IMG/VR virus record: IMGVR_UViG_3300024229_000651
Reading direction: 5' to 3' (one strand)
Source of the DNA: a virus
Lineage: Duplodnaviria > Caudoviricetes
Length of the DNA stretch: 64,000 nt
Shown: positions 23,173 to 37,567 of the stretch, in pieces
How the letters are laid out: every line of letters begins with the position of its first letter
Numbering within the stretch: the first letter of the stretch is position 1
Translations under genes and position numbers: made by a program
The notes under the pieces: model-generated
Told to the model about the DNA's origin: nothing
The model's database searches: none
The model's input: only the letters and a program-made list of their open reading frames with translations

Positions 23173-23434
23173 TTCTGATCGCAGTGCGGCTGATGATCTA
23201 GATGATCTAATGTACATATCTCTTAATCCGTGGCTGTATGATGATGCACTCACTAAAGAAGAATGTATGATGTGGAAACTAAAAAACACATGTCATGTGT
23301 GTGGTATATCAGTAAAATACCACAGAGACGATTGTGCTTTCAGTGCACCTCAGCTAAGTTTTGCAGCTATTAAAGCAGGCAATTACACTTTAGACACACG
23401 CAATTACACACTAACGAAAAATAAAAATGTATGA
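23165..23434 (+). CDS. Small hypothetical protein with Cys/His cluster
   Basis: CHVC...H...C; overlaps both neighbours. Confidence 0.5.
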   Translation: MTDSDRSAADDLDDLMYISLNPWLYDDALTKEECMMWKLKNTCHVCGISVKYHRDDCAFSAPQLSFAAIKAGNYTLDTRNYTLTKNKNV

Positions 23435-26400
23435 TATTTTTTATATTGGCAACAATACAGAACTAAAAGAAAAATACCCTTTTAGTAAACAGATAGATAA
23501 TGCGGATCGTATTAAATCTAATACAGCACTGTATTGGTTAGTAGAAAGTAATACGTCTATTACTGATTGGGAAATATTTGAATTCAAGCCTGATCAGTAC
23601 ACAGTAACATATGAACACAAATGGAAATGGAATGATGAGAATTACGGCGGGGTAGTTCTCGTTCCTAAAACAGGCGGGGCTGATACTGTTTTCCATAATA
23701 AGATTGTATGCAAAAAACAGTTTGATATTTTACTGCAAGAGACACCAGGGGAATACTTTGAGGACAACCCACACTCCAGCCACGTATGGTGTGTAGATCC
23801 TCAATATGTTTTAGGCGATGATATAAATTGGGCACCGGGGAATTTTGAACCAGACTTTATTCATAGCTTTCATTTACGTGGGCAACTTGAATTCAAGTAT
23901 CCAGAACTTGAAGGGGGAATCAAGTTGTACCCACGTGAGTGGTCTTCAGCACAATTTAAATACCATAAGTTCTTAGACACAACACTCGACTATCCTATTA
24001 TGTATGTAGCAGATGTCGACGACTATGCACAACGTGATATTCATAAAGACGATTACGTTTGGTTAATTGATAAAGAACATTGTATAAACCAGACAACAGT
24101 GGACTGGGTTCCCAATCCGTTTGAAAAAGAATTCGTGCACTGTTTTAAAATGCATTACCAGCTAAAAGAAAAATACCCTATGGCCATGGGCGGCATCAAG
24201 TTAGTTCCTACAAATTGGAAAGATGCTGAGTTAAAAATACATCCTGCGTGTCCTATAGAGGATGAAAGTTACGATGTATTTTATATAGACGATGACGAAT
24301 TCACTAGTGATACTTATAACGAGTATGCATCAAGGAGTAAGACTGACTGGTTTTGGGTCGTCGACAGAGACTTTACATTCAACGGCAAACTATTATTTGT
24401 GCCAGCGCAACACGAACAAGAGTATATACATGTGTTTAAAGTGCCTGGACATTTAGAAGAACGTTATCCAGCTGACGTAAAGGACTCATGGGATATAAGA
24501 TGCGGCGGCGTTAGACTAGTCAATAAACATTTTGATATGACCAAGCATAAGTTTCAGGAAGACATTGTTCCAATTAGATACGATATATTTTATGTAGACG
24601 ATTTAAACGATTATGCAACACCTGCAAGAAAAAGTAGAACAAAGATGTTTTGGCTTATAGACAGCGAACATCAAATTAATGAGGAGTTTAAATATGTACC
24701 ACAACGATATGACCAAAAATACATACAGGTATTCAAGTTTCCAGGTGACTTGGAACACAAGTACCCAAGAAACATTACAAATATCAGCGACAACAGAGCA
24801 GGAGGTATCAAACTTGTTCCTATCAATGGGAATGGCGAATCCAAATTCATCGACCAAAACCCAGTCGGCGGCAAAACGTACCCCATCCGATTTACTGACG
24901 ATGCAGATGAATCACTTACAGAAGATACTTGGATAGTACCTACAGCGTTTGAAGATGTTATTAGTAGTATACCATGGCAACCCAGTGTGTTTGAAAAGAA
25001 TACACAACACGTATTTGCTCATGGATTGTTACGCTGGATGCCTCTAGACTGGAACGGAGAAATTAGGGAACACGATTTTAGTCCAGTTATAATAGACATC
25101 ACATACGAAAAATTTAGTAGTTACCAAGAAGGACTAGAGCATAGCAAGTTTAACTGGTTTTGGGTAGTTAGTCCTCATGTCAGTGTACTAGAAGATTTCG
25201 ATTGGAACTTCCAACCTAATGTATTTGATGAAGGCAAAGCTCATGTCTGGCAAAAGCTAAACCCTATAACAAAAAAACAATACGACTATGGTGGTGTTGA
25301 GCTAAGGCACAAGCACGAAAAACGTGGGCGTCCTAAGTATGTTAGAGAACATGCATGTACACAAAACGTCTATCCTATATATGTATTAACAGCAAACGAT
25401 TATGCAAACGGATTAAAGTACGCATACGAACAACTGGCAAGCAAAACAGAAACAAATATGTTTTGGGTAGTCGACGCATTTGTAGATATAGATCAGCAGT
25501 TTGACTTCAGTTACTATCCTACGCAATATGATACTAGCGTGGTGCATGCTTGGCAACATGCTAGTACAAATAGATCAAGCGGTGTACGATTGCTACCGGT
25601 TGATATAGAAATTATTAACGACAAACAGATTGTAGAAAACAGTTTTGAAAAAATAAAGTTACTACCCGAAGTAGCAACAAAAGATCAAGTGTGGAGTGTG
25701 GTACATCTGACCAGTAACACTGTAGACGAAATTAACTCAGTACTTGATAAACATAGCGGTTACGTATGGACAGTTGATCCAGGTACTAACGTAGATCAAG
25801 ATACTATTGATAAAAGTTTTATACCACATGTAGATAATATACCATTTGTACACGTTTGGAAAGATGCTGACGGAGGATACGGTTCTTTAAAACTGTGGCC
25901 GACAAACTACGACACTAGTAGTTTAACAGATGAGCAAGTGTCTACTTCCAGCATAACAGACCAAGTTATAGTGGACACAGTAGCCGCACAACAAACGCAA
26001 TATCCAATATACTACTTGGATACATTAGACACATCAACGGGCTTACGTGACGTTTACGAGCGTCTAGCGAGCGATACTAGCAGTAGAATGTTCTGGGTAG
26101 TAGATGCACACACAACGGTCATGGATACGTTTGACTTTACGTTTAAGCCTTCGCAGTTTGATATGGACACAGTCCATGTCTGGCAACATGCAGGTGAGAC
26201 GAGAAATAGTGCTGTAAGATTATTACCTACCGCTACTGTGTTTAAAAACAACAAGCAAATTATCGACAACAGCTTCACAAAACTAAAACAAGTACCCCAG
26301 GTAGCGTCAAGAGATCCTGTATGGCCCGTAGTTAAACTAGAAGAGTTAACAACAAAAGAAATTACACATGTATTAAAACATGCAGAAACAAACTATGTAT

Positions 26401-29288
26401 GGACTGTTGAACCAGGGATAGAGTTAGACAGTGCATTAGTTGAACGCAGTTATGTGCCTGAATACTATCATAAAGATGCGGTTCATGTTTGGAAAAACAA
26501 AGGCACGGACGGTTACGGTGGGTTGCGTTTATGGCCTAGCGATTTTGACACAAGCAACCTGACAGACAAGAAGGTAGCAACGTGTAGTATACCTGGACAG
26601 TTTATATTGGACAGTGAAGCTGGTTCTCAAAAGCAATTCCCCGTGTACTACTTAACTAACAACGACTACGACAGAAGTTTAGTTGCTGTGTACAAAGAGC
26701 TTGCAGAAAATACAGACACACGAATGTTTTGGGTAGTTGAACCAAATGTACAAGTAAACGACGATTTCGATTTTAATTTTATGCCTTCCCAATTTGATAT
26801 GGATGTTGTACATGTTTGGGAACATTCAGGTAGCACACTCACTTCAGGTGTTAAACTAATTCCAACTAATATCGAATTCAAACATGATAAACAAATATTA
26901 GAGAATAACTACAACAAATTAAAAACAATTAACAGCACGGCATCACACGACGATAAGTGGCCGATAGTTACACTTAGTAAATTAAATGTAGACGAAGTGA
27001 TGTCAGCATTGTCTAAGAACAATAGCAGTGCATATGTGTGGACGCATGATGTTAACATTGATTTAGATCAATCTGTAATCGACGACAGTTACATACCTGA
27101 CTTCGCAAACAGAAACAATGTACATGTTTGGAAAAATAACGATACAGAAGGCTATGGCGGATTACGACTATGGCCTACAAATTATAATGTAAGCAGTCTT
27201 TCCGATGAGCAAGTACTCACATGTAGTATACCAGATCAGTTTATTCTAGACAGTACTGCTGGCTCACAAAAACTATATCCGGTATACCGTTTAACATCAC
27301 AAGACATTAAAAACGGTTTAAAGGAAACATACCAGCGTCTATCTGATCAAACAGAAACTAGAATGTTTTGGGTAGTAGATGCATTTGTAAACGTAAACGA
27401 GGACTTTGATTTTACATATGCTCCTTCACAGTTTGATACAGATGTTGTTCATGTATGGAAACATGCAAGTACAAGTAGACAAACAGGAGTGAGATTGATG
27501 CCAACAGATCTCCAATACGATTCTGATTTACAGATTAACGATAATAGTTTTGCTAAATTGAAAAAAATAGCAACTATAGCATCGCACGATCCTGTATGGC
27601 CTATAGAGAAATTTGAAACTGTGGATGTTGAAAACTTACGCAGTATGTTGGAAAAGCACAACTCTGCAGACTTTATATGGACCGTTGATCCTGATATCGA
27701 GTTAGACGAAACGATTGTGCATCAAAGTATTATTCCTCACTTGAATAATATAAATGTTGTTCACGTGTGGAAACGCACTGATAGCGAAGGGCTTGTTGTA
27801 GGACATGGCGGACTTAGACTGTGGCCTACGTGGTTCGATACAAGCAGTATAACAGATGATCAATTGATCACAAGCAGTGTACCAGACCAATTAATCTTGG
27901 ACAGCGTAGCAGGACCACAAAAACAATTCCCAATACTAGAACTAAACACTAGTACTGATGTAATAGAACAGATCAAACAGTTTGAAGAACAATGCGACAG
28001 TACAATGTATTGGTGCGTTGATCCAAATGTCACGTATGTAGACGATTGGAGTTTTGATTATATACCAACCAAGTGGGAAGAACATGTAGTTCACGTGTTC
28101 TTAGACAGCACAGACGAGCCTCGCAGTGTGAGACTGATACCGACTGGCACAGTAACGTCAGGGAATATAACAGTTAAACACATGGTTAATAACAGTTTTG
28201 ATGATCTAAAGGTAGTATATAGGCACGCCACACGCCCCACTGTATTGCCCGTGTACGGCTTTAATATAGAAAGTAGTATCAACACAGCGAGTACTAAGAG
28301 TTTAAAACAACAATTAGAACTGTTTTCTGAGCTTGCAGAAGGCAAGCCATTCTTCACACTCGATGACGATATCACTGTGATCGATGACTTTGACTATGCA
28401 CACACTGCACAGCTAGACAGTGTGGATAAAACGCATGTGTGGCAACGATTAAATCCACGTACTGGTAACACACACAGTTACGGAGGAATAAGACAGTGGC
28501 CCAATCCTCCTACATTAGCACTAAAAGAACTGACAACTGATCGTATCAAAATGAACAGAATGGATGGCCGAAAGCTACAGTACGTGAAACAGCCTGGTTG
28601 CAGTTTTAAAGAGTATTGTATTGTGATGTTGAGCTACCAAGAAGACATTGACCTTGTGGAACAGCGCATACAACGCATACAACAACAGACTGGTAGTGAC
28701 GTTATACATGTACGTGGTATCGAAGGCATATTCAATGCACACAAAGCTGCTGCAAGCAAAGTAAACAGCAGTATGTTTTGGGTTGTTGATGCTGATGCAC
28801 ACATTAAAGATGACTTCGACTTCAGCTATATACCTGATGCATATGATCACGAAGTAGTACATGTGTGGGCCAGTGAGAATCCAATCACAGGAATGGAATA
28901 CGGTTATGGTGGTGTTAAACTGTTTAACACACAACAGGTATTAGACGCTACCAGCTGGGGGCTTGACTTTACCACAGGACTTAGCAGTCGATTCAAAGCA
29001 ATGCCAGAAGTAAGTTGTGTCACACAGTTCAACACAGATGCACACAGCACATGGCGTAGTGCATTCCGTGAGTGTGTGAAGCTGTCAATGAACACTGATG
29101 ACGAAAGCAAGAAGAGATTAGAAGGATGGCTACACCCTGTGCCAAATGCTGACTTTAGACATTATGCTAAACTGGGTGCAGAACAAGGTGTAGCACATGC
29201 CAAACAGCATGCCAATAACAGTGCACAGTTAGCAAATATAAATGATTTCAATTGGCTATGGGAGAAGTATAACCGTGGCAGCGAATAG
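23427..29288 (+). CDS. 1953-aa repeat protein: about 17 degenerate GT-A-like units plus one complete C-terminal GT-A (GT2-like) domain
   Basis: Recurrent unit (Y/W)P...(F/V)W(V/T)V(D/E)...HVW...GG(V/L)(R/K)L. The last domain has GIFNAHKAAA...FWVVDAD (DxD) and YGYGGVKLF. Confidence 0.75.
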   Translation: MYDIFYIGNNTELKEKYPFSKQIDNADRIKSNTALYWLVESNTSITDWEIFEFKPDQYTVTYEHKWKWNDENYGGVVLVPKTGGADTVFHNKIVCKKQFDILLQETPGEYFEDNPHSSHVWCVDPQYVLGDDINWAPGNFEPDFIHSFHLRGQLEFKYPELEGGIKLYPREWSSAQFKYHKFLDTTLDYPIMYVADVDDYAQRDIHKDDYVWLIDKEHCINQTTVDWVPNPFEKEFVHCFKMHYQLKEKYPMAMGGIKLVPTNWKDAELKIHPACPIEDESYDVFYIDDDEFTSDTYNEYASRSKTDWFWVVDRDFTFNGKLLFVPAQHEQEYIHVFKVPGHLEERYPADVKDSWDIRCGGVRLVNKHFDMTKHKFQEDIVPIRYDIFYVDDLNDYATPARKSRTKMFWLIDSEHQINEEFKYVPQRYDQKYIQVFKFPGDLEHKYPRNITNISDNRAGGIKLVPINGNGESKFIDQNPVGGKTYPIRFTDDADESLTEDTWIVPTAFEDVISSIPWQPSVFEKNTQHVFAHGLLRWMPLDWNGEIREHDFSPVIIDITYEKFSSYQEGLEHSKFNWFWVVSPHVSVLEDFDWNFQPNVFDEGKAHVWQKLNPITKKQYDYGGVELRHKHEKRGRPKYVREHACTQNVYPIYVLTANDYANGLKYAYEQLASKTETNMFWVVDAFVDIDQQFDFSYYPTQYDTSVVHAWQHASTNRSSGVRLLPVDIEIINDKQIVENSFEKIKLLPEVATKDQVWSVVHLTSNTVDEINSVLDKHSGYVWTVDPGTNVDQDTIDKSFIPHVDNIPFVHVWKDADGGYGSLKLWPTNYDTSSLTDEQVSTSSITDQVIVDTVAAQQTQYPIYYLDTLDTSTGLRDVYERLASDTSSRMFWVVDAHTTVMDTFDFTFKPSQFDMDTVHVWQHAGETRNSAVRLLPTATVFKNNKQIIDNSFTKLKQVPQVASRDPVWPVVKLEELTTKEITHVLKHAETNYVWTVEPGIELDSALVERSYVPEYYHKDAVHVWKNKGTDGYGGLRLWPSDFDTSNLTDKKVATCSIPGQFILDSEAGSQKQFPVYYLTNNDYDRSLVAVYKELAENTDTRMFWVVEPNVQVNDDFDFNFMPSQFDMDVVHVWEHSGSTLTSGVKLIPTNIEFKHDKQILENNYNKLKTINSTASHDDKWPIVTLSKLNVDEVMSALSKNNSSAYVWTHDVNIDLDQSVIDDSYIPDFANRNNVHVWKNNDTEGYGGLRLWPTNYNVSSLSDEQVLTCSIPDQFILDSTAGSQKLYPVYRLTSQDIKNGLKETYQRLSDQTETRMFWVVDAFVNVNEDFDFTYAPSQFDTDVVHVWKHASTSRQTGVRLMPTDLQYDSDLQINDNSFAKLKKIATIASHDPVWPIEKFETVDVENLRSMLEKHNSADFIWTVDPDIELDETIVHQSIIPHLNNINVVHVWKRTDSEGLVVGHGGLRLWPTWFDTSSITDDQLITSSVPDQLILDSVAGPQKQFPILELNTSTDVIEQIKQFEEQCDSTMYWCVDPNVTYVDDWSFDYIPTKWEEHVVHVFLDSTDEPRSVRLIPTGTVTSGNITVKHMVNNSFDDLKVVYRHATRPTVLPVYGFNIESSINTASTKSLKQQLELFSELAEGKPFFTLDDDITVIDDFDYAHTAQLDSVDKTHVWQRLNPRTGNTHSYGGIRQWPNPPTLALKELTTDRIKMNRMDGRKLQYVKQPGCSFKEYCIVMLSYQEDIDLVEQRIQRIQQQTGSDVIHVRGIEGIFNAHKAAASKVNSSMFWVVDADAHIKDDFDFSYIPDAYDHEVVHVWASENPITGMEYGYGGVKLFNTQQVLDATSWGLDFTTGLSSRFKAMPEVSCVTQFNTDAHSTWRSAFRECVKLSMNTDDESKKRLEGWLHPVPNADFRHYAKLGAEQGVAHAKQHANNSAQLANINDFNWLWEKYNRGSE
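25458..28000 (+). repeat. Four-fold A/B dimer repeat (period 630, 636, 639 bp) inside the 1953-aa gene
   Basis: ATGTTYTGGGTAG (MFWV) starts at 25458, 26088, 26724 and 27363. Confidence 0.9.
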
Positions 29289-29949
29289 TTCACATGTACA
29301 GTTTGAAGACTGGAACAGTGTGTCGGATTGGTGTGATGAACTGATGTGCCTCACGCCCAGCTATGTGGACAGAATAAACAGCAGACTGTATCCCAAGGAT
29401 GCATTCACAATGGGGCAAATGGTCAGCAAAGCATGGATGGTGAACGTACTGAGTGCATTGCAATTACCACCAGCACAAGTAATAGCCATAGTGGGATGTT
29501 GGATAGGCAGTGCTGTGCCGCACCTCAGTCAGTTTGCCACACAACGCATATACGGCATAGACTGTGATGCAGAGAGCATTGAACTCAGTGAACAGTTTAA
29601 TCAGAGGTTGGTACAGGATAATTGGCGTTATAAGGGTGTGGTGTTGGACATTGATCACCAACAGACAAATGATCTACAGTTTGAAACAGGCGGAGAACTT
29701 ATTGATGTGAAGCCAGATTGGATTATCAATACCAGCTGTGAACACATGAGCAGTAATTGGTTTGACACTGCTGACAACAGCCAACTGATCATAATGCAGT
29801 CAAATAACAATCCACAGTATGAAGGCCATATCAACATTTGTGCAGACGTAGCAGAACTGCAACATAAATATCCATTAACACAGTGTTTATATGTGGGCAG
29901 CATAACAACTCCAGCATATACTCGTTTTATGCAGATAGGATACAAATAA
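29275..29949 (+). CDS. Class I SAM-methyltransferase-like protein
   Basis: IAIVGCWIG, IYGIDCD, DWIINTSCEH. GTG start after SD GGAGAA; the ORF track starts at 29242. Confidence 0.6.
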   Translation: MAANSSHVQFEDWNSVSDWCDELMCLTPSYVDRINSRLYPKDAFTMGQMVSKAWMVNVLSALQLPPAQVIAIVGCWIGSAVPHLSQFATQRIYGIDCDAESIELSEQFNQRLVQDNWRYKGVVLDIDHQQTNDLQFETGGELIDVKPDWIINTSCEHMSSNWFDTADNSQLIIMQSNNNPQYEGHINICADVAELQHKYPLTQCLYVGSITTPAYTRFMQIGYK

Positions 29950-30881
29950 TGAAAACCATAGTTGTTGTTTGCCAAACAAACACAGAAGGACAAGAGAATC
30001 GAATCTATGACGGTGGAGCACATGGCCCAACCAACGTTCGTTCAACAAAAGCAAAGGTGTTACCAGGCAAGAGTGACACGTATGATCATACTCACATAAA
30101 CAGAATGAAAGCCATGCTGGATCACGTGGGTGCTGAATACGACAGATTTCTGGCCATCACAAATGCCAACATACGAAAGATAGACACCAGCATTGAAGTG
30201 CTACCACTGCCCGAGGGTGATGAATACCTTGGTTGGTGGAGCAAGATGTACATGTACAATCCCAACCTCCGACTTAACGGCACAGTGATGTACATTGACC
30301 TAGACATGATGCCTGGCGAACTGTTCAACAACCTGTGGAGCGAATCACCTGAATATGATGTGCTGTGCCGCAGGGCTCCACACAAAGACGGCATGCGCAG
30401 AGAAAACTTCTTGCCCGGAGTTAATCGAGAAGGTGAACAGTGGGATTACCTCAGCTGGATATACAACACCAGTGTGATTAGATTCTGTCCTGATAAAATG
30501 AGCAGCTTGTGGCTGTGGTACCAACACAACATCCAACACAAAATGGACTTGGGTTTGAAAGGAGATGAACTGTTTGTGGCCAAGTGGCTGATAGACAACA
30601 GTGACTGGGTCAAACACGGAGAGTTTGATGTGCGCTACATGCCCAGTTACCCCAATTTGATACTGCGTCACTTCAGCGGCAACCCACTGTATGATCCACT
30701 GAACAAATCAGGAATTATGAATCCGCTGCCCATACACAAACGCACAGAAGTCACCACCAGTGAGAACATCATACCATGGCACAGACTCACAGCAGTCACA
30801 ATGGGCGGCGCATGGAAACCCTGGACCATAGCAGTCAACGACACGCACATTGCTGAACGCTATTACGGCGAAGAACTATAA
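29949..30881 (+). CDS. Glycosyltransferase-like protein (GT-A, GT8-like)
   Basis: GWWSKMYMY...VMYIDLD (DxD), YNTSVI, GDELFV, KPW. Start at the TAATG overlap. Confidence 0.65.
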   Translation: MKTIVVVCQTNTEGQENRIYDGGAHGPTNVRSTKAKVLPGKSDTYDHTHINRMKAMLDHVGAEYDRFLAITNANIRKIDTSIEVLPLPEGDEYLGWWSKMYMYNPNLRLNGTVMYIDLDMMPGELFNNLWSESPEYDVLCRRAPHKDGMRRENFLPGVNREGEQWDYLSWIYNTSVIRFCPDKMSSLWLWYQHNIQHKMDLGLKGDELFVAKWLIDNSDWVKHGEFDVRYMPSYPNLILRHFSGNPLYDPLNKSGIMNPLPIHKRTEVTTSENIIPWHRLTAVTMGGAWKPWTIAVNDTHIAERYYGEEL

Positions 30882-30883
30882 CA

Positions 30884-31369
30884 ATGACTCCGTTGGTGTT
30901 GAGCAAACGTTTTGTGAAGCAGTTGGGCATGGTCACAGCCAACTTGCCCAGCACAGGACACACCAGTACTGGCGTTCACCCAATGAACTGGCACAGTACC
31001 AGTTATGATATACCCAGCAGTTTGTTGTATGCCATGCCCGCAGTAGCCCCGCAGAAACTGTGTTTGAGAAGCAACTTCACAGTGAGTGTGTACAGTTTGG
31101 CACCACAACACAGCAGTCACAAACAGTGCAGCAGTGAACACAGTCAGTATTGGTTAAACACCAGCGACAGAGAAATAACAGTGCAGTACACAGATCCCAG
31201 AACAATAACAGAACACACCATACTGTGGCAACCCTACACCAGCTTTATACTCAGCAGTGAACACCCACACAGTGTGTTGAATCACAACGATACTGGTGTG
31301 AATTGGTTGTGTGTGCACACTGGAATGAGCTGGCAGGACACAGCAAAGCATTATCAGCATCAGTGGTAG
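30884..31369 (+). CDS. Cupin/double-stranded beta-helix-like hypothetical protein
   Basis: LAPQHSSH...YWLN...ILWQPYTSFILSSEHPHSVLN resembles cupin/AspH-type strands. Confidence 0.4.
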   Translation: MTPLVLSKRFVKQLGMVTANLPSTGHTSTGVHPMNWHSTSYDIPSSLLYAMPAVAPQKLCLRSNFTVSVYSLAPQHSSHKQCSSEHSQYWLNTSDREITVQYTDPRTITEHTILWQPYTSFILSSEHPHSVLNHNDTGVNWLCVHTGMSWQDTAKHYQHQW

Positions 31370-31385
31370 GAGGGGGCCCACTTCA

Positions 31386-31418
31386 GAGCGAAGCGACCCG
31401 CGGCGCAAAACGCAAAAA
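31386..31418 (+). repeat. Left arm of perfect 33-bp inverted repeat
   Basis: GAGCGAAGCGACCCGCGGCGCAAAACGCAAAAA is the exact reverse complement of 34289..34321. Confidence 0.95.
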
Positions 31419-31420
31419 TT

Positions 31421-31879
31421 TTATATCAACTGTAATGCACCACAGTAGTCAGGATATGTCCTATACGTGTCAACACATATCAGTCTGTGAGGAGGTTCAC
31501 ACACTGCACCGTGACGAGTTTGACTGTTCAATAAGAACCAATGATGAGGCTGCAACACTAGTTCTACACCATCCACACTCACAGTTATAGGCTTTGATTC
31601 ACAGTTTAACACACAGTGGCTTAAACGCATTCTATCGCCAACATCATTGAAAACGTCCCTATGCGTGGGTAACACAGTTCTAGTAACAGTTTCCACAGTG
31701 ACCTTAACATCAGACTGAACAGCATAATAACTGCAAAATGCATCAGTGAGTGTGCTGTTGTAATGCACAGTGTGATACATGTTTAACCTGAGATGTGGTG
31801 AGTTCAGTTCACACCATGCTAATATACTCTGACATTCTGCTTGCAGGTGTGAGGGAATACTGTATTGAGTTAAGTGCAT
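31421..31879 (-). CDS. 2OG-Fe(II)/cupin-like protein
   Basis: LPTHRD (HxD)...WFLLNSQTRHGA (distal His). Confidence 0.55.
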   Translation of the reverse strand: MHLTQYSIPSHLQAECQSILAWCELNSPHLRLNMYHTVHYNSTLTDAFCSYYAVQSDVKVTVETVTRTVLPTHRDVFNDVGDRMRLSHCVLNCESKPITVSVDGVELVLQPHHWFLLNSQTRHGAVCEPPHRLICVDTYRTYPDYCGALQLI

Positions 31880-32265
31880 ACAGTTACTTATGTGAAAGGT
31901 GTATACAAACTACAAAAAAATTGTGCGTAAAAATTTTTCAAATGGGGGTAGGGTGGTGGCTGGAACTATATGTATACTAGAGGAGGTATACAGTGACAGA
32001 AAAATTTGGGGCTACCGATGACCTACAGCCAAAAACTTCAATCATTTCAAGCACTTAGCCGGTACCCCATGGTAATTATTGGAATTTTTATTTTTTTTTA
32101 TTTTTTCAGTTTTTTCTGTTGACTGCACTGCCACAGTGTGCGCAACTTGGGGTCGCTGTGTATGTATGGTATACACTTACCACACTGGGTACCACACAGT
32201 GCTATCCTCTCACTACAGTGTGTGAAGTCACTGGTGGTAACGGCTTTGCATATGCATATGATCAT

Positions 32266-32457
32266 CTACTTGAAGTAACGCAGCACTAACAGGATCAGCA
32301 CCAGCACACCTAACACATAACTCAGCGGCCAGTATAACATGATCCATAACAGTAATGCAATACCCACCACAGCAGGCAGTAAGCTGACTAGGCTTAATGT
32401 GAGCTTGACTATCACATAAGCAAACAACAGTAACAGTGCTACAGTTAACAGTTCCAT
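32266..32457 (-). CDS. Small hydrophobic membrane protein
   Basis: 63 aa, almost entirely hydrophobic, abuts 32458..32958. Confidence 0.6.
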   Translation of the reverse strand: MELLTVALLLLFAYVIVKLTLSLVSLLPAVVGIALLLWIMLYWPLSYVLGVLVLILLVLRYFK

Positions 32458-32958
32458 CTATACATCACACTGTGTAAAGTAGTCACTGAGTTCACTGTAC
32501 TGTAGTGTCTCGCCTGTCACCATGACATAACTGTTGGTGTGACTGTTACGCTCACCATCGCGGCCCATTGTGAAAGTTTCAGTTTGGCTTTGGATCTCAG
32601 AACGCATGTAGCCCATGTCACCGTTAAGTGTAACACGAGTGGCGCACCACAGTAACGATTCACTGTCGAAGGTTAACACATATGGGCTATCCCATTCCTC
32701 ACACACATCAGTATGATCATCCTGGATCATCCAGTCAATGATGTACTCTTCGAACATTTCCGAGCGGCTTTCGATGAGGCATCTCAGCGTGGGGATGCCG
32801 TCCACAGCAATCTTATCAATGCTGCGGCGGCTGAGGTTCTCCACAACGTAGGTGGCACCGCCCTTCATCTTCCAATATTGAGGACATGAACCCTCGCCAT
32901 CCCAGTCGTGGGCGCCGTAGTTTTCGCGATGCTGTGTGAGGATAACCAACTTGCTCAT
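32458..32958 (-). CDS. Hypothetical early phage protein
   Basis: Directly downstream of early promoter P1; TQHRENYGAHDWDG...QYWKMKGG. Confidence 0.7.
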   Translation of the reverse strand: MSKLVILTQHRENYGAHDWDGEGSCPQYWKMKGGATYVVENLSRRSIDKIAVDGIPTLRCLIESRSEMFEEYIIDWMIQDDHTDVCEEWDSPYVLTFDSESLLWCATRVTLNGDMGYMRSEIQSQTETFTMGRDGERNSHTNSYVMVTGETLQYSELSDYFTQCDV

Positions 32959-32993
32959 ATGCTCTACTCTTGTTGCGCTAGTGTATGTGTTAC

Positions 32994-33022
32994 ATTATAC
33001 CGGATTTTGTGGTACAAGTCAA
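32994..33022 (-). promoter_or_regulatory. Sigma70 early promoter P1
   Basis: TTGACT-N17-TATAAT on the - strand, preceded by AAAAAAGG. Confidence 0.85.
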
Positions 33023-33028
33023 CCTTTT

Positions 33029-33289
33029 TTACTGTGCTGCCAACATGCTGAGTGGTACATTGTACCGCTGTCCACCATTCATGCGCACAATGGCCTTCTT
33101 GATGTTCACCTTCTGCACCACACCAGGTGTACGCTTGGTCTTCTGCACAACCCATACAGTGTCACCAACACTGATGCTGCGCTTGCTGTTCTCAGTCTTC
33201 TGATTGATGCAGAACTGTGTGAGCAAACTGAGCTGCTCATTGTCCAGGTTCGCCGCTAGGATTGCACTTTGGATACTGTGTAAACTCAT
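33029..33289 (-). CDS. Hypothetical early protein with SH3/KOW-like C-terminus
   Basis: ISVGDTVWVV...GVVQKVNIKKAIV; follows P2. Confidence 0.65.
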   Translation of the reverse strand: MSLHSIQSAILAANLDNEQLSLLTQFCINQKTENSKRSISVGDTVWVVQKTKRTPGVVQKVNIKKAIVRMNGGQRYNVPLSMLAAQ

Positions 33290-33323
33290 ATTTTTCTGCT
33301 CTTTGATTGTTTAATATGTGTAT

Positions 33324-33352
33324 ATTATACTGGATTTTGCGGCACAAGTCAA
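33324..33352 (-). promoter_or_regulatory. Sigma70 early promoter P2
   Basis: TTGACT-N17-TATAAT. Confidence 0.85.
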
Positions 33353-33357
33353 CCTTT

Positions 33358-33693
33358 TTAGCTGACTGCAGCAAAGGTGTTTATCACATCACCGTCCACG
33401 TCAAAGCTCACATAGTCATAACCCTGCATGCCCTGCTCACTGTAACTGGCTTCACCCACAATGCCAAGATCACTCAGTAGGTTATTAACACCCTTCACAA
33501 ACCCCGAATCTGTGTATATCAATCCGCTGGCTTCCACATCCCAAGTATCCTCATCAAAGTATACTCTCAGCTCACCATATTCACTACTAGTGTCAACATG
33601 TGATAACTCCACGCTGGTCACACGAACAGCACGTTTCTCACTAGTATACAAACCCTTACCATCTGTGTGTAACACTGCGTTCAACTTGATCAT
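33358..33693 (-). CDS. Hypothetical early phage protein
   Basis: Follows P3; SYSEQGMQGYDYVSFDV. Confidence 0.7.
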   Translation of the reverse strand: MIKLNAVLHTDGKGLYTSEKRAVRVTSVELSHVDTSSEYGELRVYFDEDTWDVEASGLIYTDSGFVKGVNNLLSDLGIVGEASYSEQGMQGYDYVSFDVDGDVINTFAAVS

Positions 33694-33728
33694 ATGTAGT
33701 AGTAACCTTTTGCTTAACTATGTATACT

Positions 33729-33756
33729 ATTATACTGATATCTAGACAGAAGTCAA
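33729..33756 (-). promoter_or_regulatory. Sigma70 early promoter P3
   Basis: TTGACT-N16-TATAAT. Confidence 0.75.
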
Positions 33757-34000
33757 CCATTATTTCTGGTAGAAAAAAGCCATATATTTCATGGTGTTAC
33801 ACACTGTACAGTCACAATGTGGCATTATAGAAGTTTCCGCTGCAGCGAAATAGTTGGAGATACCATGCACACACTGTAACTGCATGATTTTGCTACAGTT
33901 TTTCAAAATTTGATTTGTTCCGGTATAGACGCTAAGTTTTCTGCACTGTGAGACACCCACAAAATACCCACACTGGGCGAATATTCTCCGAAAAACCACA

Positions 34001-34030
34001 CAATTCTGCACAATTCTACACTTTTCTACA
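34001..34030. repeat. Three imperfect tandem decamers
   Basis: CAATTCTGCA CAATTCTACA CTTTTCTACA in non-coding DNA. Confidence 0.6.
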
Positions 34031-34288
34031 CCCTGCACGGTGCATAGTGCAGCAGTATTGTGGTATGTCTCAGTATGGTTCTGTGCTGTATACACATTGT
34101 GTTACTGTGTACTGCGTGGTGTGTAGTGCTGTGTATAATATCCACCTAAAACTGTTCACACAGTGATATTAATGTTATTGCCTTTGTATTGTTCAAGCAG
34201 TCTGTATCTACGTATGTACAATAACACATTGTGATCAGTCACGCCTCTGCTCACATTACCGTAGCTTAACTGTGAGGGTAGTGGGTAT

Positions 34289-34321
34289 TTTTTGCGTTTT
34301 GCGCCGCGGGTCGCTTCGCTC
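34289..34321 (-). repeat. Right arm of perfect 33-bp inverted repeat
   Basis: TTTTTGCGTTTTGCGCCGCGGGTCGCTTCGCTC. Confidence 0.95.
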
Positions 34322-35393
34322 ATAAAGGGGTCACCTGGTTGCTCAATTGGTTGTATGCAGTATCATTAAGCTCACACCATGCACTGTTTAACTGTATTCT
34401 TTCAGTGGGTTTGCTGCTCAGTGTTGGCACACTTGTGTTCAGTTCAGTACTTATATGTGGGAACAGTTGTTGAGTTGGTGTGTGATGATGGTATGTGGTT
34501 AACTGCACATTATCGGGCAAAGTTTGTTGTGTCAGAGTGCTCAGTATGGGATAGTCACTGTACAGTTTGAATTGATGATCAATCCAGTTGCGCATCTGTT
34601 GACTGTGTGTGTTGGTATAACTGTGTTGCTTTACTAACTGAATCAGCTGTTCAACTTCACTTGGTTTCAACACAGCACTGAGATGATTGATCCAACTGTG
34701 CATTCGTTCTGTGGGGTTTCGCAAGCCTATTAACAGCTGCACACTGTGAAAGTTTCTGCTGAGTGCATTCACAAAGGTGATTAATTTGTGCTGTCTGTGC
34801 GGCACACTGTGAATCAGTTGAGCAGTTGTGGTGTGATGTTTCACAGTGTACTGCTGTTCATTGGTGAACATTCCGCCGTTTGTGAGTGTGGGTGCAAACG
34901 CCACTATGGGTAAATCACTTAATGTGTCATCACAGTCTCCCCACAATAATGTGTTTGGTTCAACACTGTGAGGGTAGTTCAACTCTGTGCTCAGCCAGGG
35001 TATGTGTTGTTGACAGTTGTGTGTCACACTGTAATGCTGAGGATTTATATCCAGTGTGTGGTTGTTCAGTCTGTTTAACCATAACTGTATCACACTGTCA
35101 ATGTGGGGATTTTCTGTTTGACTGTGTAATGGATGCCCTGTGGTGCTATGTGCATACAGTCTGTTCACTGAAGGATCTTCTTTGATGTTGTTGGCCAACA
35201 TGTAAATGCTGCCAGTTAGTGGATGGTTATGTGGTAACTTTCTGCTGAGTACCCACTGTAATAGCTGTATTTGACTGCGAGGAATGTTCATCTGAGTGCT
35301 CACACCAAACTGATTGTTGTGCAACAACAGATTGAACAGATAGGTGGTGCTGGTTCGTGTGGGGCCTAGATGCAGTATCAACTGTTTTTTCAT
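34320..35393 (-). CDS. Sulfotransferase-like protein (P-loop fold), His/Gln/Thr-rich
   Basis: ILHLGPTRTSTTYL (5'-PSB-like) and IGLRNPTERMHS (3'-PB-like). Confidence 0.6.
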   Translation of the reverse strand: MKKQLILHLGPTRTSTTYLFNLLLHNNQFGVSTQMNIPRSQIQLLQWVLSRKLPHNHPLTGSIYMLANNIKEDPSVNRLYAHSTTGHPLHSQTENPHIDSVIQLWLNRLNNHTLDINPQHYSVTHNCQQHIPWLSTELNYPHSVEPNTLLWGDCDDTLSDLPIVAFAPTLTNGGMFTNEQQYTVKHHTTTAQLIHSVPHRQHKLITFVNALSRNFHSVQLLIGLRNPTERMHSWINHLSAVLKPSEVEQLIQLVKQHSYTNTHSQQMRNWIDHQFKLYSDYPILSTLTQQTLPDNVQLTTYHHHTPTQQLFPHISTELNTSVPTLSSKPTERIQLNSAWCELNDTAYNQLSNQVTPL

Positions 35394-35401
35394 TATAACT
35401 G

Positions 35402-35409
35402 TATTTATA
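35402..35409 (-). promoter_or_regulatory. T4 late promoter consensus TATAAATA
   Basis: Exact match 9 nt upstream of 34320..35393. Confidence 0.65.
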
Positions 35410-35415
35410 TGCCAT

Positions 35416-35448
35416 AAAAAAATGCAGACGCTGAATAGCGGTCTGCAT
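35416..35448 (-). terminator. Rho-independent terminator
   Basis: ATGCAGAC/GTCTGCAT stem plus inner GCT/AGC, followed by a U-run on the - strand, downstream of 35481..36182. Confidence 0.7.
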
Positions 35449-35480
35449 CTGAATCCTTTCTACACTTGCAACATTTGTTC

Positions 35481-36182
35481 TTATGGTTTTTCCAGTACAA
35501 TATTATTTATCAAACTGTTAACACTGTGAGCCAGTTGAACCAATTCAGTTGACAGTAGATGGTATTGATCTCCCACTGAACCATCCTCAATTGACTGTAA
35601 ATGATCAGCTATCATAGCCACACTGTGTGGGTTCCACTGTGTGTTAATTGTGGATTTTGCCCAACCGTAACACTGGCTGTGGTAACCTGACGTGTAGTCG
35701 TTTTCAGTGGAGAGATGTGCTTTCACATGGTTTATGCCTGGGTGTAGCAGTTGCCGTATGGGTCCTGCACCACCTAACACTATGGTTTTTCCTTGTGGTA
35801 ATGCCTGTTGCCACTCCGATTGAATTTTCTCACACCATTCTGTGTGCTGTTGTGGAGTGTAATCTTTGAACTTGTTGTGTAGTCGTTCGTGGTAACTGTG
35901 TGGGTCAGATGATGTTATCCATATACCATCCAGGCATTCTATCTCAGTGTTTAAGAAGATTCTGTAAGGACAAGTGGCGAACACAACCACACAATCATGC
36001 TGTTCGTGGGTCTGAGTTATGATGGTTTTACTCACATTCAAGCAGGTTGCTGGCTGGCAGTAATTGGTAACTGTGTGTCCGTGGCTGTTCAGTGCTTTAC
36101 AAAATTCACTGGGTGAGCTTGCGCTTCGAGGTCCTCTTGTCCAATCCCATGCCCAACTGTCGCCGTATACACCTATATTCAC
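35481..36182 (-). CDS. SGNH/GDSL-like protein
   Basis: N-terminal IGVYGDSWA (GDS block I); C-terminal DQYHL. Confidence 0.55.
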   Translation of the reverse strand: MNIGVYGDSWAWDWTRGPRSASSPSEFCKALNSHGHTVTNYCQPATCLNVSKTIITQTHEQHDCVVVFATCPYRIFLNTEIECLDGIWITSSDPHSYHERLHNKFKDYTPQQHTEWCEKIQSEWQQALPQGKTIVLGGAGPIRQLLHPGINHVKAHLSTENDYTSGYHSQCYGWAKSTINTQWNPHSVAMIADHLQSIEDGSVGDQYHLLSTELVQLAHSVNSLINNIVLEKP

Positions 36183-37567
36183 TGTGCATATTTCCGTATG
36201 TTGTTATAACTTTTTGTGACTTCTGCTAGTAGTTTTCTATTAAGTGGCGGCTGCTGATGAGGTAACAAAGGCCAATCAGCATTGGCTAATGATTTTTTAC
36301 CGAAATTATTTAAACTGTTCATATCATCGGGCATAATTTCGGAGAAAACACTTTTTACATACTGTTTGTCGTGTAGTCGATCAGTATCATATATTACCAA
36401 CTCACAGTTGGATGGCAGTGCACCCTTATCTAGTAATCGATCAAAGTGGCAATAACTTGCGTGAGTCATACACCACAAGTAATAGTATCTAATTTCGTCT
36501 CTGAGAGCATCAGTTATTTTGTTCCTATGCACGTTCATGAGACTGGTTATGCGTATGTCGTTCAGTTCAGCGTACTCTATATCTCTTAAAAGTTTTTCTA
36601 AGTCTTTTGTTTTTAAGATTTTGCTTTGCTTGATACGATTTATAATTTTTGTGTGGAATACTCTGCTGTCCAGACCTAATTGGCTTGTGTATCTTGCTTC
36701 AGGATCTCGCATGCCGATTACTAGTTTTACGTTGTCGTATTGACTGGATAAGCAATGTACTTGATCTAATAGTTGCTGTTGTTCAGCCGGAAGCCAATTT
36801 TCTAAATAGTCATCAATGCTGGCTTGCCCATTTTGTGTGTCTACATTAAATCTTGTGCTGCACAAATAAGCATCACCTGTTGCAATTGTTTTAACACTGT
36901 CGTCGTTACTGAAATCGAAACTCACACCTAAGTCACGCAATACTCCTCGCCAACTTGGCATTAACCTCAACTCCCACAGTTCTCTTTGTTCCCAATCACC
37001 ATCTACTTCAGGAGTAGGACTCTTGAGCGCATGAAAAATACTGTTGTTGCGAGACTGTATCTTGTCTTCAGAAAGGTGAGAAGTGGTGTGCGGCAATACA
37101 TGATGAAAGGCCGACATCACCGGAGCCATTCTTGCAAATGACTGTACTATATTAGATTGCACAGGCGGCAGTGTGTTAATCCACTGTTCCATTTTGGGCC
37201 ACGTGCCTAATTGGCTTTGGGTAGCCAACCTGTTTCTATAAAGTTGTTCAAATTCGATATATTTTTCTTTGTCTAGTACACCACCACGCATGCCTGTAGC
37301 AGACAACAGACTTCGTTGCCCAGCCAAATACATAGGAGGATCTTCTTTTGTCACTATGTTTAATGTAAACAACATAGCATCGAGCAGTTGTTTTTCTTGG
37401 TCGCTGGAGGGTATTGTGTTCCTAACTTTGTATATAAAGTCTAACCAGTCTTGACTGTGATTTACTTTTACAGTTTTATTATACAGTTGATTATCAATAA
37501 TAGTATCCCAAAGCCACGTAGTACCTGTTCTTGCAGGGCCCAGATGTAACATTAAGTTTCTATTCAT
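36179..37567 (-). CDS. Sulfotransferase-like protein, paralog of 34320..35393
   Basis: MLHLGPARTGTTWL and IGMRDPEARYTS. Confidence 0.65.
   Translation of the reverse strand: MNRNLMLHLGPARTGTTWLWDTIIDNQLYNKTVKVNHSQDWLDFIYKVRNTIPSSDQEKQLLDAMLFTLNIVTKEDPPMYLAGQRSLLSATGMRGGVLDKEKYIEFEQLYRNRLATQSQLGTWPKMEQWINTLPPVQSNIVQSFARMAPVMSAFHHVLPHTTSHLSEDKIQSRNNSIFHALKSPTPEVDGDWEQRELWELRLMPSWRGVLRDLGVSFDFSNDDSVKTIATGDAYLCSTRFNVDTQNGQASIDDYLENWLPAEQQQLLDQVHCLSSQYDNVKLVIGMRDPEARYTSQLGLDSRVFHTKIINRIKQSKILKTKDLEKLLRDIEYAELNDIRITSLMNVHRNKITDALRDEIRYYYLWCMTHASYCHFDRLLDKGALPSNCELVIYDTDRLHDKQYVKSVFSEIMPDDMNSLNNFGKKSLANADWPLLPHQQPPLNRKLLAEVTKSYNNIRKYAQ

What the first reader, a model, noticed from the sequence alone, without database searches (positions are those of the whole stretch)
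28000..36300. Localised TpA depletion with CpA/TpG gain over about 8 kb around the strand switch
Seen (approximate hand counts per 300 nt): 34621-34920 has TA about 8, CA+TG about 71, CG about 6. 31021-31320 has TA about 13. Control 12001-12300 has TA about 27, CA+TG about 39, CG about 7. The bias affects genes on both strands and non-coding DNA, and fades in through the 3' end of the repeat gene. It also skews proteins toward His/Gln/Thr/Val (e.g. 34320..35393). CpG is unchanged, so this is not methyl-C decay. Inference: strand-symmetric A-to-G change in TA context, from a TA-preferring adenine deaminase or error-prone polymerase near an origin or genome end. Alternatively, selection against a TA-containing target (restriction, TA-inserting transposase) in first-exposed DNA.
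Basis: partly seen in the sequence, partly recalled or inferred. Interest (0 to 1): 0.72.

Follow-up and report, generated by a model that had tools for sequence, protein, structure and literature searches.

The report
Conserved CA/TG-rich hypervariable phage island
An 8-kb stretch of a 340-kb marine T4-like phage holds an extreme excess of CA/TG dinucleotides that six related lineages keep at the same place, and it is also where nearly all strain variation sits; an ongoing local bias is therefore maintaining it, not a past burst of A-to-G mutation or a foreign insert.

Summary
Three details need correcting. CpG is also depleted (odds ratio 0.46 against 0.79). AC/GT also rises. TpA depletion is confined to coding DNA, mainly codon junctions.

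The block runs from about 28.4 to 36.1 kb, with a CA/TG odds ratio of 1.68 (peaks 2.0) against 1.18±0.08 elsewhere. About half of the excess survives correction for amino-acid and codon usage.

It lies where two gene blocks of an uncultured ~340-kb marine T4-like jumbo phage converge. It surrounds an early-gene cassette with three near-consensus sigma-70 promoters. An invariant inverted 25-nt element bounds the cassette.

The same graded, two-peaked island occurs at the same place in five further lineages, although their block genes have diverged to 30-84% amino-acid identity. It is also the diversity hot spot: 83 of 87 variable sites among 99.9%-identical strains fall in it. Silent divergence from a 96%-identical relative is 4-8 times higher there.

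The youngest variants run CA/TG→TA (6 against 0), opposite to the proposed deaminase. Horizontal import is also rejected. My best reading (about 0.4) is a fixation bias linked to recombination or short-patch repair in a hyperplastic region. Direct selection on the DNA or on the mRNA remains open. The scan holds no similar note on other DNA.

The parts
28400..36100 (.). Compositional island: CA/TG odds ratio 1.5-2.0, AC/GT 1.3, CpG 0.46, TA 0.76, G+C 44% against 39%
   Evidence: Sliding-window odds ratios. The excess persists after amino-acid and codon correction.
31000..35000 (.). Core divergence hot spot: 6-13% nucleotide divergence from relative L016, against about 1% in the flanks; substitutions are clustered
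   Evidence: Pairwise profile. dS is 0.09-0.26 against 0.025-0.05, and non-coding divergence 0.11 against 0.014. There are 125 adjacent substituted pairs against 35 expected.
23427..29288 (+).
   Evidence: ORF list, 400-nt profile, and the same fade-in in L031 and L032.
29242..29949 (+). 235-aa gene, with only weak methyltransferase-like hits
   Evidence: NCBIfam E = 0.02, far below the curated cut-off. It is 81-84% identical in L031 and L032.
29949..30881 (+). 310-aa gene, glycosyltransferase-like
   Evidence: phrog_1962, E = 6e-5. It is 50-68% identical in relatives.
30884..31369 (+). 161-aa gene, the last gene of the + block; left peak of CA/TG
31386..31410 (+). Left copy of the invariant 25-nt CpG-rich element GAGCGAAGCGACCCGCGGCGCAAAA, directly after the stop codon of the 161-aa gene
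   Evidence: Inverted repeat I1. Exact copies occur in every lineage, including the most distant, L033.
31421..31879 (-). 152-aa gene, the most polymorphic: 27 protein variants in its 90% cluster, dN/dS 0.76
32266..33693 (-). Early-gene cassette (63, 166, 86 and 111 aa), each unit behind a repeated promoter
   Evidence: ORFs, repeat family D1. The 166-aa protein folds confidently but has no known fold.
32994..33022 (-). Sigma-70-type promoter TTGACT-17-TATAAT, copy 1
   Evidence: Matches 11 of 12 consensus positions.
33324..33352 (-). Sigma-70-type promoter, copy 2
   Evidence: Matches 11 of 12.
33729..33756 (-). Sigma-70-type promoter, copy 3
   Evidence: Matches 11 of 12.
34297..34321 (-). 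Right copy of the invariant 25-nt element, inverted, directly after the stop codon of the 357-aa gene
34320..35393 (-). 357-aa gene (N-terminal motif LHLGPxRTxTT shared with the 462-aa neighbour); right and highest CA/TG peak (2.0), TA 0.43-0.52, CpG 0.11-0.29; only 51-54% identical in relatives
35481..36182 (-). 233-aa gene, the right edge of the island

Best explanation
The stretch is the hyperplastic junction of a ~340-kb marine T4-like jumbo phage. Two long gene blocks converge on a small early-gene cassette bounded by an invariant inverted 25-nt element. Co-circulating variants and sister lineages exchange DNA here far more than elsewhere.

I propose that the CA/TG-rich, TA- and CpG-poor state is kept up by a fixation bias tied to that exchange. 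Heteroduplex DNA forms around the cassette and is corrected in very short patches. The correction favours CA/TG (and AC/GT) over TA, CG and A/T runs. This resembles GC-biased gene conversion or Vsr-type very-short-patch repair, but with dinucleotide specificity. The bias would be strongest in the genes flanking the cassette, where crossovers must resolve, and would decay with distance.

Shown here: the island, its conservation, its graded two-peak shape, its overlap with the diversity and divergence hot spot, and young mutations eroding it.

Inferred, not shown: that recombination is the cause, and that repair bias rather than direct selection is the fixing force.
For: 1. The island is an equilibrium state, not a relic. 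The same profile occurs at the same genes in L016, L031, L003, L002/L032 and L017, and more weakly in L033. In those lineages the block genes are only 30-84% identical in amino acids while the flanks are 89-93% identical.
2. The shape is graded and two-peaked. It fades in over 2-3 kb inside one giant gene, peaks in the last gene on each side just outside the 25-nt arms, and dips in the cassette. The window, L031 and L032 all show this.
3. It coincides with the variation. Of 87 variable sites among up to 20 near-identical contigs, 83 fall in the block, which is 42% of the length compared (p = 2e-26). None lies between 36.0 and 43.5 kb. Four further samples show the same pattern.
4. dS and non-coding divergence from L016 are 4-8 times those of the flanks.
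5. Haplotypes look shuffled: Rmin is 13 among 11 haplotypes, and many minor alleles equal the L016 allele, down to single positions inside patches.
6. Young derived variants erode the bias. CA/TG to TA transitions number 6 against 0 in reverse (p = 0.03); events creating TA number 7 against 2 destroying it. Derived W-to-S alleles tend to be the common ones (9:5 against 5:9, not significant).
7. G+C is raised by 5-10 points, as at biased-conversion hot spots.
8. From my own recollection of the T4 literature, not checked here: T4-type recombination repairs heteroduplex mismatches in very short patches (endonuclease VII). T4-type hyperplastic regions are documented exchange points (PMC2839356, PMC4122927).
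Against: - No known repair bias yields this dinucleotide pattern. Classical GC-biased conversion has no context dependence and would favour CpG, which is depleted here.
- The edges of the island (28.4-31 kb and 35-36.1 kb) are as biased as the core, yet diverge from L016 only slightly more than the flanks (dS 0.035-0.049).
- TA is not depleted in the block's non-coding DNA. A purely DNA-level process should not spare it, unless promoters and A/T tracts there are constrained.
- Haplotype phase comes from metagenome assemblies, which can be chimeric. Rmin may therefore be inflated.
- The allele-frequency tests rest on 22-28 events.
Confidence: 0.4

Rival explanations
1. Direct selection on a double-strand DNA property of this locus. 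Possible targets are DNA that pairs readily (GT/CA-rich sequence favoured by RecA-type recombinases, which would aid cassette swapping), avoidance of A/T tracts and TA/CG-containing protein or nuclease targets, or a particular density of the phage's guanine modification, since here G is flanked mostly by T.
For: - A fixation bias is required, and the pattern is nearly strand-symmetric.
- The sequence becomes alternating in strong/weak and purine/pyrimidine terms, with shorter S/W runs (1.68 against 1.95) and longer amino/keto runs.
- Odd-centred palindromes of the CAC-N-GTG type exceed first-order Markov expectation: 204 against 144±11, while a control region shows no excess.
- RecA prefers TGG/GT-rich DNA and (TG/CA)n tracts stimulate recombination (PMC3763553, PMC5948810, PMC1177943).
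Against: - No single motif explains the bias.
- No 10-11-nt periodicity is present.
- Even palindromes are not depleted.
- Chi, CRP-like and LexA-like spaced motifs are not enriched.
- Another promoter-repeat region of small genes at 43-50 kb shows no such bias.
- Second-order selection for recombinogenic DNA is weak in theory.
- Nothing is known of the modification pattern.
Confidence: 0.25
2. Selection on mRNA against UpA and CpG, for example against an endoribonuclease or for stability near 3' ends. CpA/UpG would rise as the only remaining pyrimidine-purine junctions, as in RNA viruses and vertebrate mRNAs.
For: - TA depletion is confined to coding DNA. It is strongest at silent 3-1 and 2-3 codon positions, and TA is normal in the block's non-coding DNA.
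- Both peaks lie in the last gene before the conserved 25-nt element, which follows a stop codon on the sense strand on both sides.
- The CpG/UpA-low, CpA/UpG-high signature is well known in RNA (PMC3829696, PMC3985648).
Against: - The bias grades in within a single gene over 2-3 kb.
- The CA/TG gain (+65 per kb) is twice the TA plus CG loss (-34 per kb), and AC/GT also rises.
- CA/TG enrichment and CpG depletion persist in non-coding DNA.
- To my knowledge no CpG-sensing RNA pathway has been described in bacteria.
- The complementary words are enriched almost equally on the sense strand.
Confidence: 0.12
3. Regionally targeted mutagenesis, the first reader's idea in broad form: a deaminase, an error-prone polymerase or template switching acts preferentially here, and its spectrum creates CA/TG.
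For: - Silent and non-coding divergence is 4-8 times higher in the core.
- Substitutions come as multi-nucleotide patches.
- A few patches match nearby direct or inverted copies of 12-13 nt, for example at 34808-34811 and 33805.
- One rare allele turns CAAACTACA into CAGTGTGCA.
- Odd palindromes are in excess.
Against: - Young single-base variants run the other way (6 against 0).
- Most patches have no nearby donor.
- Multi-nucleotide codon differences sit at residues that vary in every lineage, and some equal the codon of a distant relative. They therefore look like old alleles or multiple hits, not single events.
- The island's edges are biased without being hypervariable.
- TA loss covers at most about 40% of the gain.
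Confidence: 0.1
4. A horizontally acquired block, or a cassette pool that carries the composition of a foreign donor.
For: - Composition is atypical.
- The right edge in the window falls near a gene boundary at 36.18 kb.
- Gene content of the cassette differs between lineages.
Against: - The block is present at the same place in all six lineages.
- The edges are graded, not sharp.
- The block has diverged to saturation yet keeps the bias, so amelioration is being opposed.
- To my knowledge no genome has a genome-wide CA/TG odds ratio near 1.7-2.0.
- No similar DNA was found in 50,697 phage records or in IMG/VR.
Confidence: 0.04

Closest known systems
Hyperplastic regions of T4-type phages with PeSL promoter/stem-loop cassettes (Arbiol et al. 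2010, PMC2839356; Comeau et al. 2014, PMC4122927)
   Same: - Small non-core early genes lie between conserved blocks.
- Each gene sits behind a repeated near-consensus sigma-70 promoter (three copies, 11 of 12 matches).
- Cassette content differs between close relatives.
- The locus is the main site of divergence.
   Different: - Neither paper's text mentions a dinucleotide or composition anomaly.
- Here the island extends 2-3 kb into flanking larger genes.
- It is bounded by an invariant inverted 25-nt element rather than by tandem PeSLs.
- Another region of small genes in the same window, with a promoter-repeat copy, lacks the bias.
GC-biased gene conversion at recombination hot spots (for example PMC4510005, PMC12290510)
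   Same: - G+C rises locally.
- The effect decays with distance from a centre.
- It opposes an AT-biased mutation input.
- It distorts silent sites and amino-acid content alike.
   Different: - Classical gBGC is blind to context and favours CpG.
- Here the favoured states are CA/TG and AC/GT, and CpG is halved.
- I found no paper describing gBGC in phages.
Very-short-patch (Vsr) repair shaping oligonucleotide frequencies in enterobacteria (CTAG scarcity; discussed in PMC5337935)
   Same: A context-specific mismatch-repair bias that changes short-word frequencies, including loss of TA-containing words (CTAG is 0.40x here).
   Different: Vsr acts genome-wide and depends on Dcm sites. Here the effect is local, and no Vsr-like protein was detected in the block.
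CpG/UpA suppression with CpA/UpG excess in RNA viruses and cytoplasmic mRNAs (PMC3829696, PMC3985648)
   Same: The same four dinucleotides move in the same directions, and the effect is strongest at codon junctions.
   Different: That signature is transcript- or genome-wide and occurs in eukaryotic hosts. Here it is an 8-kb graded island in a DNA phage, with extra AC/GT gain and CA/TG enrichment in non-coding DNA.
Repeat-induced point mutation in fungi (RIPCAL, PMC2621366)
   Same: A local, strand-symmetric dinucleotide distortion that affects coding and non-coding DNA.
   Different: The direction is the exact opposite: RIP turns CpA/TpG into TpA. RIP also targets repeats and destroys genes, whereas here the genes stay intact and conserved.

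Membership tests
T4-type hyperplastic region with PeSL cassettes | A cluster of small, non-core ORFs between conserved gene blocks | tested here: met
   ORFs of 63-166 aa at 31.4-33.7 kb have no Pfam, PHROG or NCBIfam family. The flanks are 89-93% identical in relatives.
T4-type hyperplastic region with PeSL cassettes | Repeated near-consensus sigma-70 early promoters, each paired with a stem-loop, flanking the ORFs | tested here: inconclusive
   Three promoters match 11 of 12 positions within a 44-nt repeat family. No paired stem-loop was shown. The 25-nt arms fold no better than shuffled sequence.
T4-type hyperplastic region with PeSL cassettes | Gene gain, loss or replacement between close relatives at the cassette | tested here: met
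   L016 has a 203-nt insertion and a 69-aa gene where the window has the 86-aa gene. L032 and L017 carry 231-aa and 114-aa genes instead.
GC-biased gene conversion tract | A local rise of G+C that coincides with a recombination hot spot | tested here: inconclusive
   G+C is 44-50% against 38-39%. Rmin is 13 among 11 haplotypes, but phase comes from metagenome assemblies.
GC-biased gene conversion tract | Derived W-to-S alleles segregate at higher frequency than S-to-W alleles | tested here: inconclusive
   Common derived alleles are 9 W-to-S against 5 S-to-W; rare ones are 5 against 9. Fisher p = 0.26.
GC-biased gene conversion tract | The bias does not depend on neighbouring bases (CpG is not disfavoured) | tested here: not met
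   Dinucleotide specificity is strong, and the CpG odds ratio is halved.
   TA-to-CA/TG transitions number 0 against 6 in the reverse direction, among variants polarised with L016.
   TA falls by 27 per kb while CA/TG rises by 65 per kb. CpG, AA/TT and AC/GT change too.
Horizontally acquired genomic island | Patchy presence among relatives | tested here: not met
   The block is present at the same genes in all six lineages examined.
Horizontally acquired genomic island | Sharp borders with mobility genes or att-like direct repeats | tested here: not met
   The border fades over 2-3 kb inside one gene. No integrase or transposase is present. The only repeats are the inverted 25-nt arms inside the island.
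RNA-level CpG/UpA suppression | The effect follows transcripts and is absent from untranscribed or non-coding DNA | tested here: inconclusive
   TA depletion is coding-only. CpG depletion and CA/TG excess persist in non-coding DNA, and the bias grades in within one gene. No transcript map was available.

The most novel reading that the evidence does not exclude
The invariant inverted 25-nt elements mark a dedicated diversification locus. Breaks or strand exchange begin at or between them. Heteroduplex then spreads a few kb outwards and is resolved by a phage short-patch repair activity with a dinucleotide-specific bias. The phage thereby both shuffles its early (possibly anti-host) and glycan-tailoring genes and writes a CA/TG signature into the DNA. 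This would be context-specific biased gene conversion in a bacterial virus, and such hot spots could then be read directly from sequence composition.
Probability: 0.25. Interest if true: 0.85.

Novelty: new variant of a known kind. Interest (0 to 1): 0.66.

Why it matters
Local composition is routinely read as a sign of foreign origin, or of mutation bias alone. Here the anomaly is extreme (a CA/TG odds ratio of up to 2.0, which to my knowledge no whole genome reaches). It is position-specific and conserved across lineages that have otherwise diverged to saturation. It also sits exactly where these phages vary.

If a recombination-linked fixation bias causes it, this would extend biased-conversion-type evolution to phages and give it a dinucleotide specificity not described before. 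It would offer a sequence-only marker for diversification hot spots in uncultured phage genomes. It would also warn against calling such islands horizontal transfers.

If selection on the DNA or the mRNA causes it, it points to an unknown host or phage factor that reads TA, CG or A/T tracts at one locus only.

Either way the question is testable with the deep time-series metagenomes that already hold this phage.

Tried and rejected
- **Close DNA or protein relatives in cultured phages or IMG/VR for block genes:** none found. The single metagenome scan added only one near-identical contig.
- **Whole-genome view:** no genome is held for this window or for the contigs behind the loci. I could not ask whether other such islands exist in the remaining ~276 kb.
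they share only a 36-residue N-terminal motif and a weak 22%-identical stretch, too distant for DNA-level polarisation. Tandem Repeats Finder found no usable DNA repeats in the 1953-aa gene.
- **A single motif:** CACAGTG/CACTGTG is about 8-fold enriched, but the enrichment extends to all CA/TG-rich words rather than one motif. Its strand preference follows the coding strand. Chi, TGTGA-N6-TCACA and CTGT-N8-ACAG are not enriched.
- **Restriction-type avoidance:** 4-mer and 6-mer palindromes are not depleted beyond Markov expectation.
- **Helical periodicity of CA/TG or AA/TT:** none beyond controls.
- **Templated origin of the multi-nucleotide patches:** most have no donor within ±400 nt.
- **Polarising window/L016 differences with L031:** this gave 17 CA/TG destroyers against 7 creators. 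I discard it, because a saturated outgroup drawn from the same biased composition mis-polarises towards exactly that result.
- **The 25-nt arms as an intrinsic terminator or stable hairpin:** folding energy is no better than that of shuffles.
- **T4 late-promoter word TATAAATA:** only 2 copies in 64 kb, so nothing can be built on the one upstream of the 357-aa gene.
- **Function of the cassette's 166-aa protein:** the model is confident (pLDDT 86), with no match in PDB and only unnamed proteins in AlphaFold DB; the ESM Atlas gave nothing.
- **Read laying:** only contigs were available, so there are no allele frequencies, read starts or termini. Contigs break at the arms simply because the perfectly repeated part of the arms is longer than the assembler's word length; this is no evidence of inversion.
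- **Earlier notes of this scan:** none describes a similar island on other DNA.

Full report
**1. Checking the observation**

In 1-kb windows the strand-symmetrised CA/TG odds ratio is 1.18 ± 0.08 (maximum 1.38) outside the region. Between about 28.4 and 36.1 kb it is 1.68 (range 1.50-1.85), and 400-nt windows reach 1.9-2.0 at 34.4-35.0 kb. TA falls from 86 to 60 per kb (p = 2e-15).

Three details are wrong or incomplete:
- CpG is depleted too. It falls from 30.4 to 22.5 per kb (p = 9e-5), and its odds ratio from 0.79 to 0.46. The raw counts looked equal only because G+C is higher in the block.
- AC/GT rises from 1.08 to 1.32, and AA/TT shows the largest loss (-49 per kb). The sequence drifts towards alternating (CA)n/(TG)n-like text. 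The TA loss (-27 per kb) could feed at most about 40% of the CA/TG gain (+65 per kb).
- In the 1.2 kb of non-coding DNA inside the block, CA/TG is high (1.45) and CpG low (0.59), but TA is normal (1.01).

Within genes the bias is strongest at silent positions. At the codon 3-1 junction the TA odds ratio is 0.46 against 1.12 outside, and CA is 1.82 against 1.17.

Of the CA+TG excess in block genes (213 against 140 per kb), about 20% comes from amino-acid composition, 30% from codon usage and 50% from codon context. The enriched words are almost equally enriched with their reverse complements on the sense strand. The force therefore acts on double-stranded sequence, with only a mild extra C-richness of the sense strand.

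**2. What the locus is**

Earlier notes of this scan, together with contig lengths of 339-346 kb, identify an uncultured marine T4-like jumbo phage.

- On the + strand, a long sugar-tailoring gene block ends with a 1953-aa repeat protein, a 235-aa gene, a 310-aa glycosyltransferase-like gene and a 161-aa gene.
- On the - strand, a long block ends with a 233-aa gene and a 357-aa gene.
- Between them lies a cassette of small genes (111, 86, 166, 63 and 152 aa). Three of these units sit behind a repeated promoter, TTGACT-17-TATAAT, that matches 11 of 12 consensus positions.
- The cassette is bracketed by an inverted repeat. Its 25-nt core, GAGCGAAGCGACCCGCGGCGCAAAA, follows the stop codon of the 161-aa gene on one side and of the 357-aa gene on the other.

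This is the layout of a T4-type hyperplastic region with promoter cassettes (PMC2839356, PMC4122927).

**3. Relatives**

Homologues of the 357-aa and 310-aa proteins led to contigs from other samples. They comprise up to 19 near-identical contigs (99.8-99.95%), one relative about 96.5% identical (L016), and four to five more distant lineages (L031, L003, L002/L032, L017, L033).

All of them carry the island at the same genes, with the same shape. It fades in over 2-3 kb inside the giant gene, peaks in the last gene on each side of the cassette, and dips inside the cassette. CpG reaches 0.13-0.4 and TA 0.43-0.6. In the most distant lineage (L033) the island is weaker, at 1.4-1.5.

In these lineages the flanking genes are 89-93% identical in protein to the window's, but the block genes only 30-84%. 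The block has therefore turned over to saturation while keeping its composition. This excludes both a one-off mutational burst and an un-ameliorated foreign insert. The bias is being maintained.

The 25-nt element is letter-perfect in every lineage, although it carries six of the island's scarce CpGs.

**4. The island is also the variation hot spot**

- Among up to 20 near-identical contigs, 83 of 87 variable sites between 24.6 and 42.9 kb lie in the block (52 of 56 events; p = 1e-15 to 2e-26). No variable site lies between 36.0 and 43.5 kb.
- Contigs from four further samples repeat this pattern.
- The 152-aa and 357-aa proteins have 27 and 21 variants in their 90% clusters. The 704-aa flank protein has 6.
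- Against L016, divergence is about 1% in the flanks and 6-13% at 31.0-35.0 kb. dS is 0.09-0.26 against 0.025-0.05, and non-coding divergence 0.11 against 0.014. The excess is therefore not just relaxed protein constraint.
- Many full-length assemblies break inside the block.

In the core the differences are clustered: 125 adjacent substituted pairs against 35 expected. Codon alignments show that these patches sit at residues that differ in every lineage. Some equal the codon of a distant relative. They therefore look like old alleles or repeated hits rather than single mutational events.

Haplotypes appear shuffled: Rmin is 13 among 11 haplotypes, and minor alleles often equal the L016 allele. 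Metagenome consensus assemblies can create false phase, so this figure is an upper bound.

**5. Mutation or fixation?**

I polarised the polymorphisms of the near-identical clade with L016 and kept events where the common allele equals the outgroup. This left 22 young derived events.
- Single transitions run CA/TG to TA six times and TA to CA/TG never (p = 0.03).
- Seven events create a TA and two destroy one.
- Eight events destroy a CA/TG and three create one.
- Derived W-to-S alleles tend to be the common ones and S-to-W the rare ones (9:5 against 5:9; not significant).

The numbers are small, but they point one way. Ordinary AT-biased mutation erodes the island, and something at the level of fixation restores it.

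A second polarisation, with the distant L031 as outgroup, gave the same direction. I discard it because a compositionally biased, saturated outgroup produces that result by itself.

**6. Mechanism**

The facts to be explained are:
- a double-strand, dinucleotide-specific bias;
- a graded profile with two peaks flanking the variable cassette;
- raised G+C;
- overlap with the exchange and diversity hot spot;
- maintenance against mutation.

The most economical reading is a recombination-linked fixation bias. Heteroduplex forms where cassettes are swapped and is corrected in short patches, with a preference that favours CA/TG and AC/GT. This is analogous to GC-biased gene conversion or Vsr-type repair, but with a new context specificity. 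I give it about 0.4. That recombination causes the bias, and that repair is the fixing force, are both inferences.

Against this reading:
- CpG is disfavoured.
- The island's edges are biased without being hypervariable.
- TA is spared in non-coding DNA.

The rivals are:
- direct selection on a DNA property, such as pairing-prone GT-rich DNA, avoidance of A/T tracts or of TA/CG targets, or modification density (0.25). An excess of odd palindromes beyond dinucleotide expectation (204 against 144±11) shows some higher-order structure;
- selection on mRNA against UpA and CpG (0.12). This fits the coding-only TA loss but not the within-gene gradient or the non-coding CA/TG excess;
- regional mutagenesis (0.10);
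- foreign origin (0.04).

**7. Comparison with what is known, and verdict**

The locus qualifies as a T4-type hyperplastic region, apart from the untested stem-loop part of PeSLs. The PeSL paper I text-searched (PMC4122927) contains neither "dinucleotide" nor "composition"; I did not text-search PMC2839356. Another region of small genes with a promoter-repeat copy in this same window lacks the bias.

It fails a defining feature of classical gBGC (context independence), of deaminase-type hypermutation (direction and mass balance) and of a genomic island (patchiness and sharp borders). Its dinucleotide signature equals that of CpG/UpA-suppressed RNAs and is the mirror image of fungal RIP.

I rate it a new variant of a known kind. 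It is a hyperplastic region that carries a conserved, extreme compositional signature and invariant inverted boundary elements. The signature's cause is open but testable with existing deep metagenomes.

Noticed in passing
window 31386-31410 (+) and 34297-34321 (-); also L016, L031, L033 (two copies each) and L002, L003, L017, L032: A 25-nt CpG-rich element, GAGCGAAGCGACCCGCGGCGCAAAA, is letter-perfect in every lineage. Neighbouring genes fall to 30% amino-acid identity. It always starts directly after a stop codon on the sense strand, as an inverted pair around the early cassette. It holds the GCGAAGC mini-hairpin word and a CCGCGG palindrome, but folds no better than shuffled sequence.
   Followed up: partly
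window 31421-31879 (-): The 152-aa protein has 27 sequence variants within one 90% cluster, differing at up to 9 of 152 residues among phages that are otherwise 99.9% identical. Its dN/dS against L016 is 0.76. It may be a protein under diversifying selection.
   Followed up: partly
window 34320-35393 (-) and 36179-37567 (-): The 357-aa and 462-aa proteins share an N-terminal motif, LHLGPxRTxTT, that resembles the PAPS-binding loop of sulfotransferases. The resemblance is from my memory. Pfam and NCBIfam give no family.
   Followed up: no
window 35400-35440 (-) and 35402-35409 (-): A strong hairpin followed by a T run lies after the 233-aa gene. One of only two TATAAATA words in the 64-kb window lies just upstream of the 357-aa gene. 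That gene may therefore be a separate transcription unit.
   Followed up: no
window about 44.5 kb: A further copy of the cassette promoter repeat (similar to 33306-33360) lies about 524 nt beyond 44000, as seen from a contig laid across it. The region of small genes there shows no CA/TG excess.
   Followed up: no
window 31389-34318; Logan contigs of four samples: In k=31 assemblies the cassette comes out as a separate 2,930-nt contig that ends in both arms. Several ~340-kb assemblies start or end inside the block. This is expected from the repeat and from strain mixtures. Cassette orientation therefore remains untested by short reads.
   Followed up: partly
L016:8653-9590, against window 33020-33360: The 96%-identical relative has a 203-nt insertion and a 69-aa gene where the window has the 86-aa gene. 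L032 and L017 carry 231-aa and 114-aa genes instead. This is cassette turnover between close lineages.
   Followed up: partly
window 28000-35200, both strands: Because TAA and TAG are scarce, the island holds many antisense ORFs of 84-122 aa (for example 28575-28934, 29655-30023 and 30345-30671 on the - strand). These are probably by-products of composition rather than genes.
   Followed up: no
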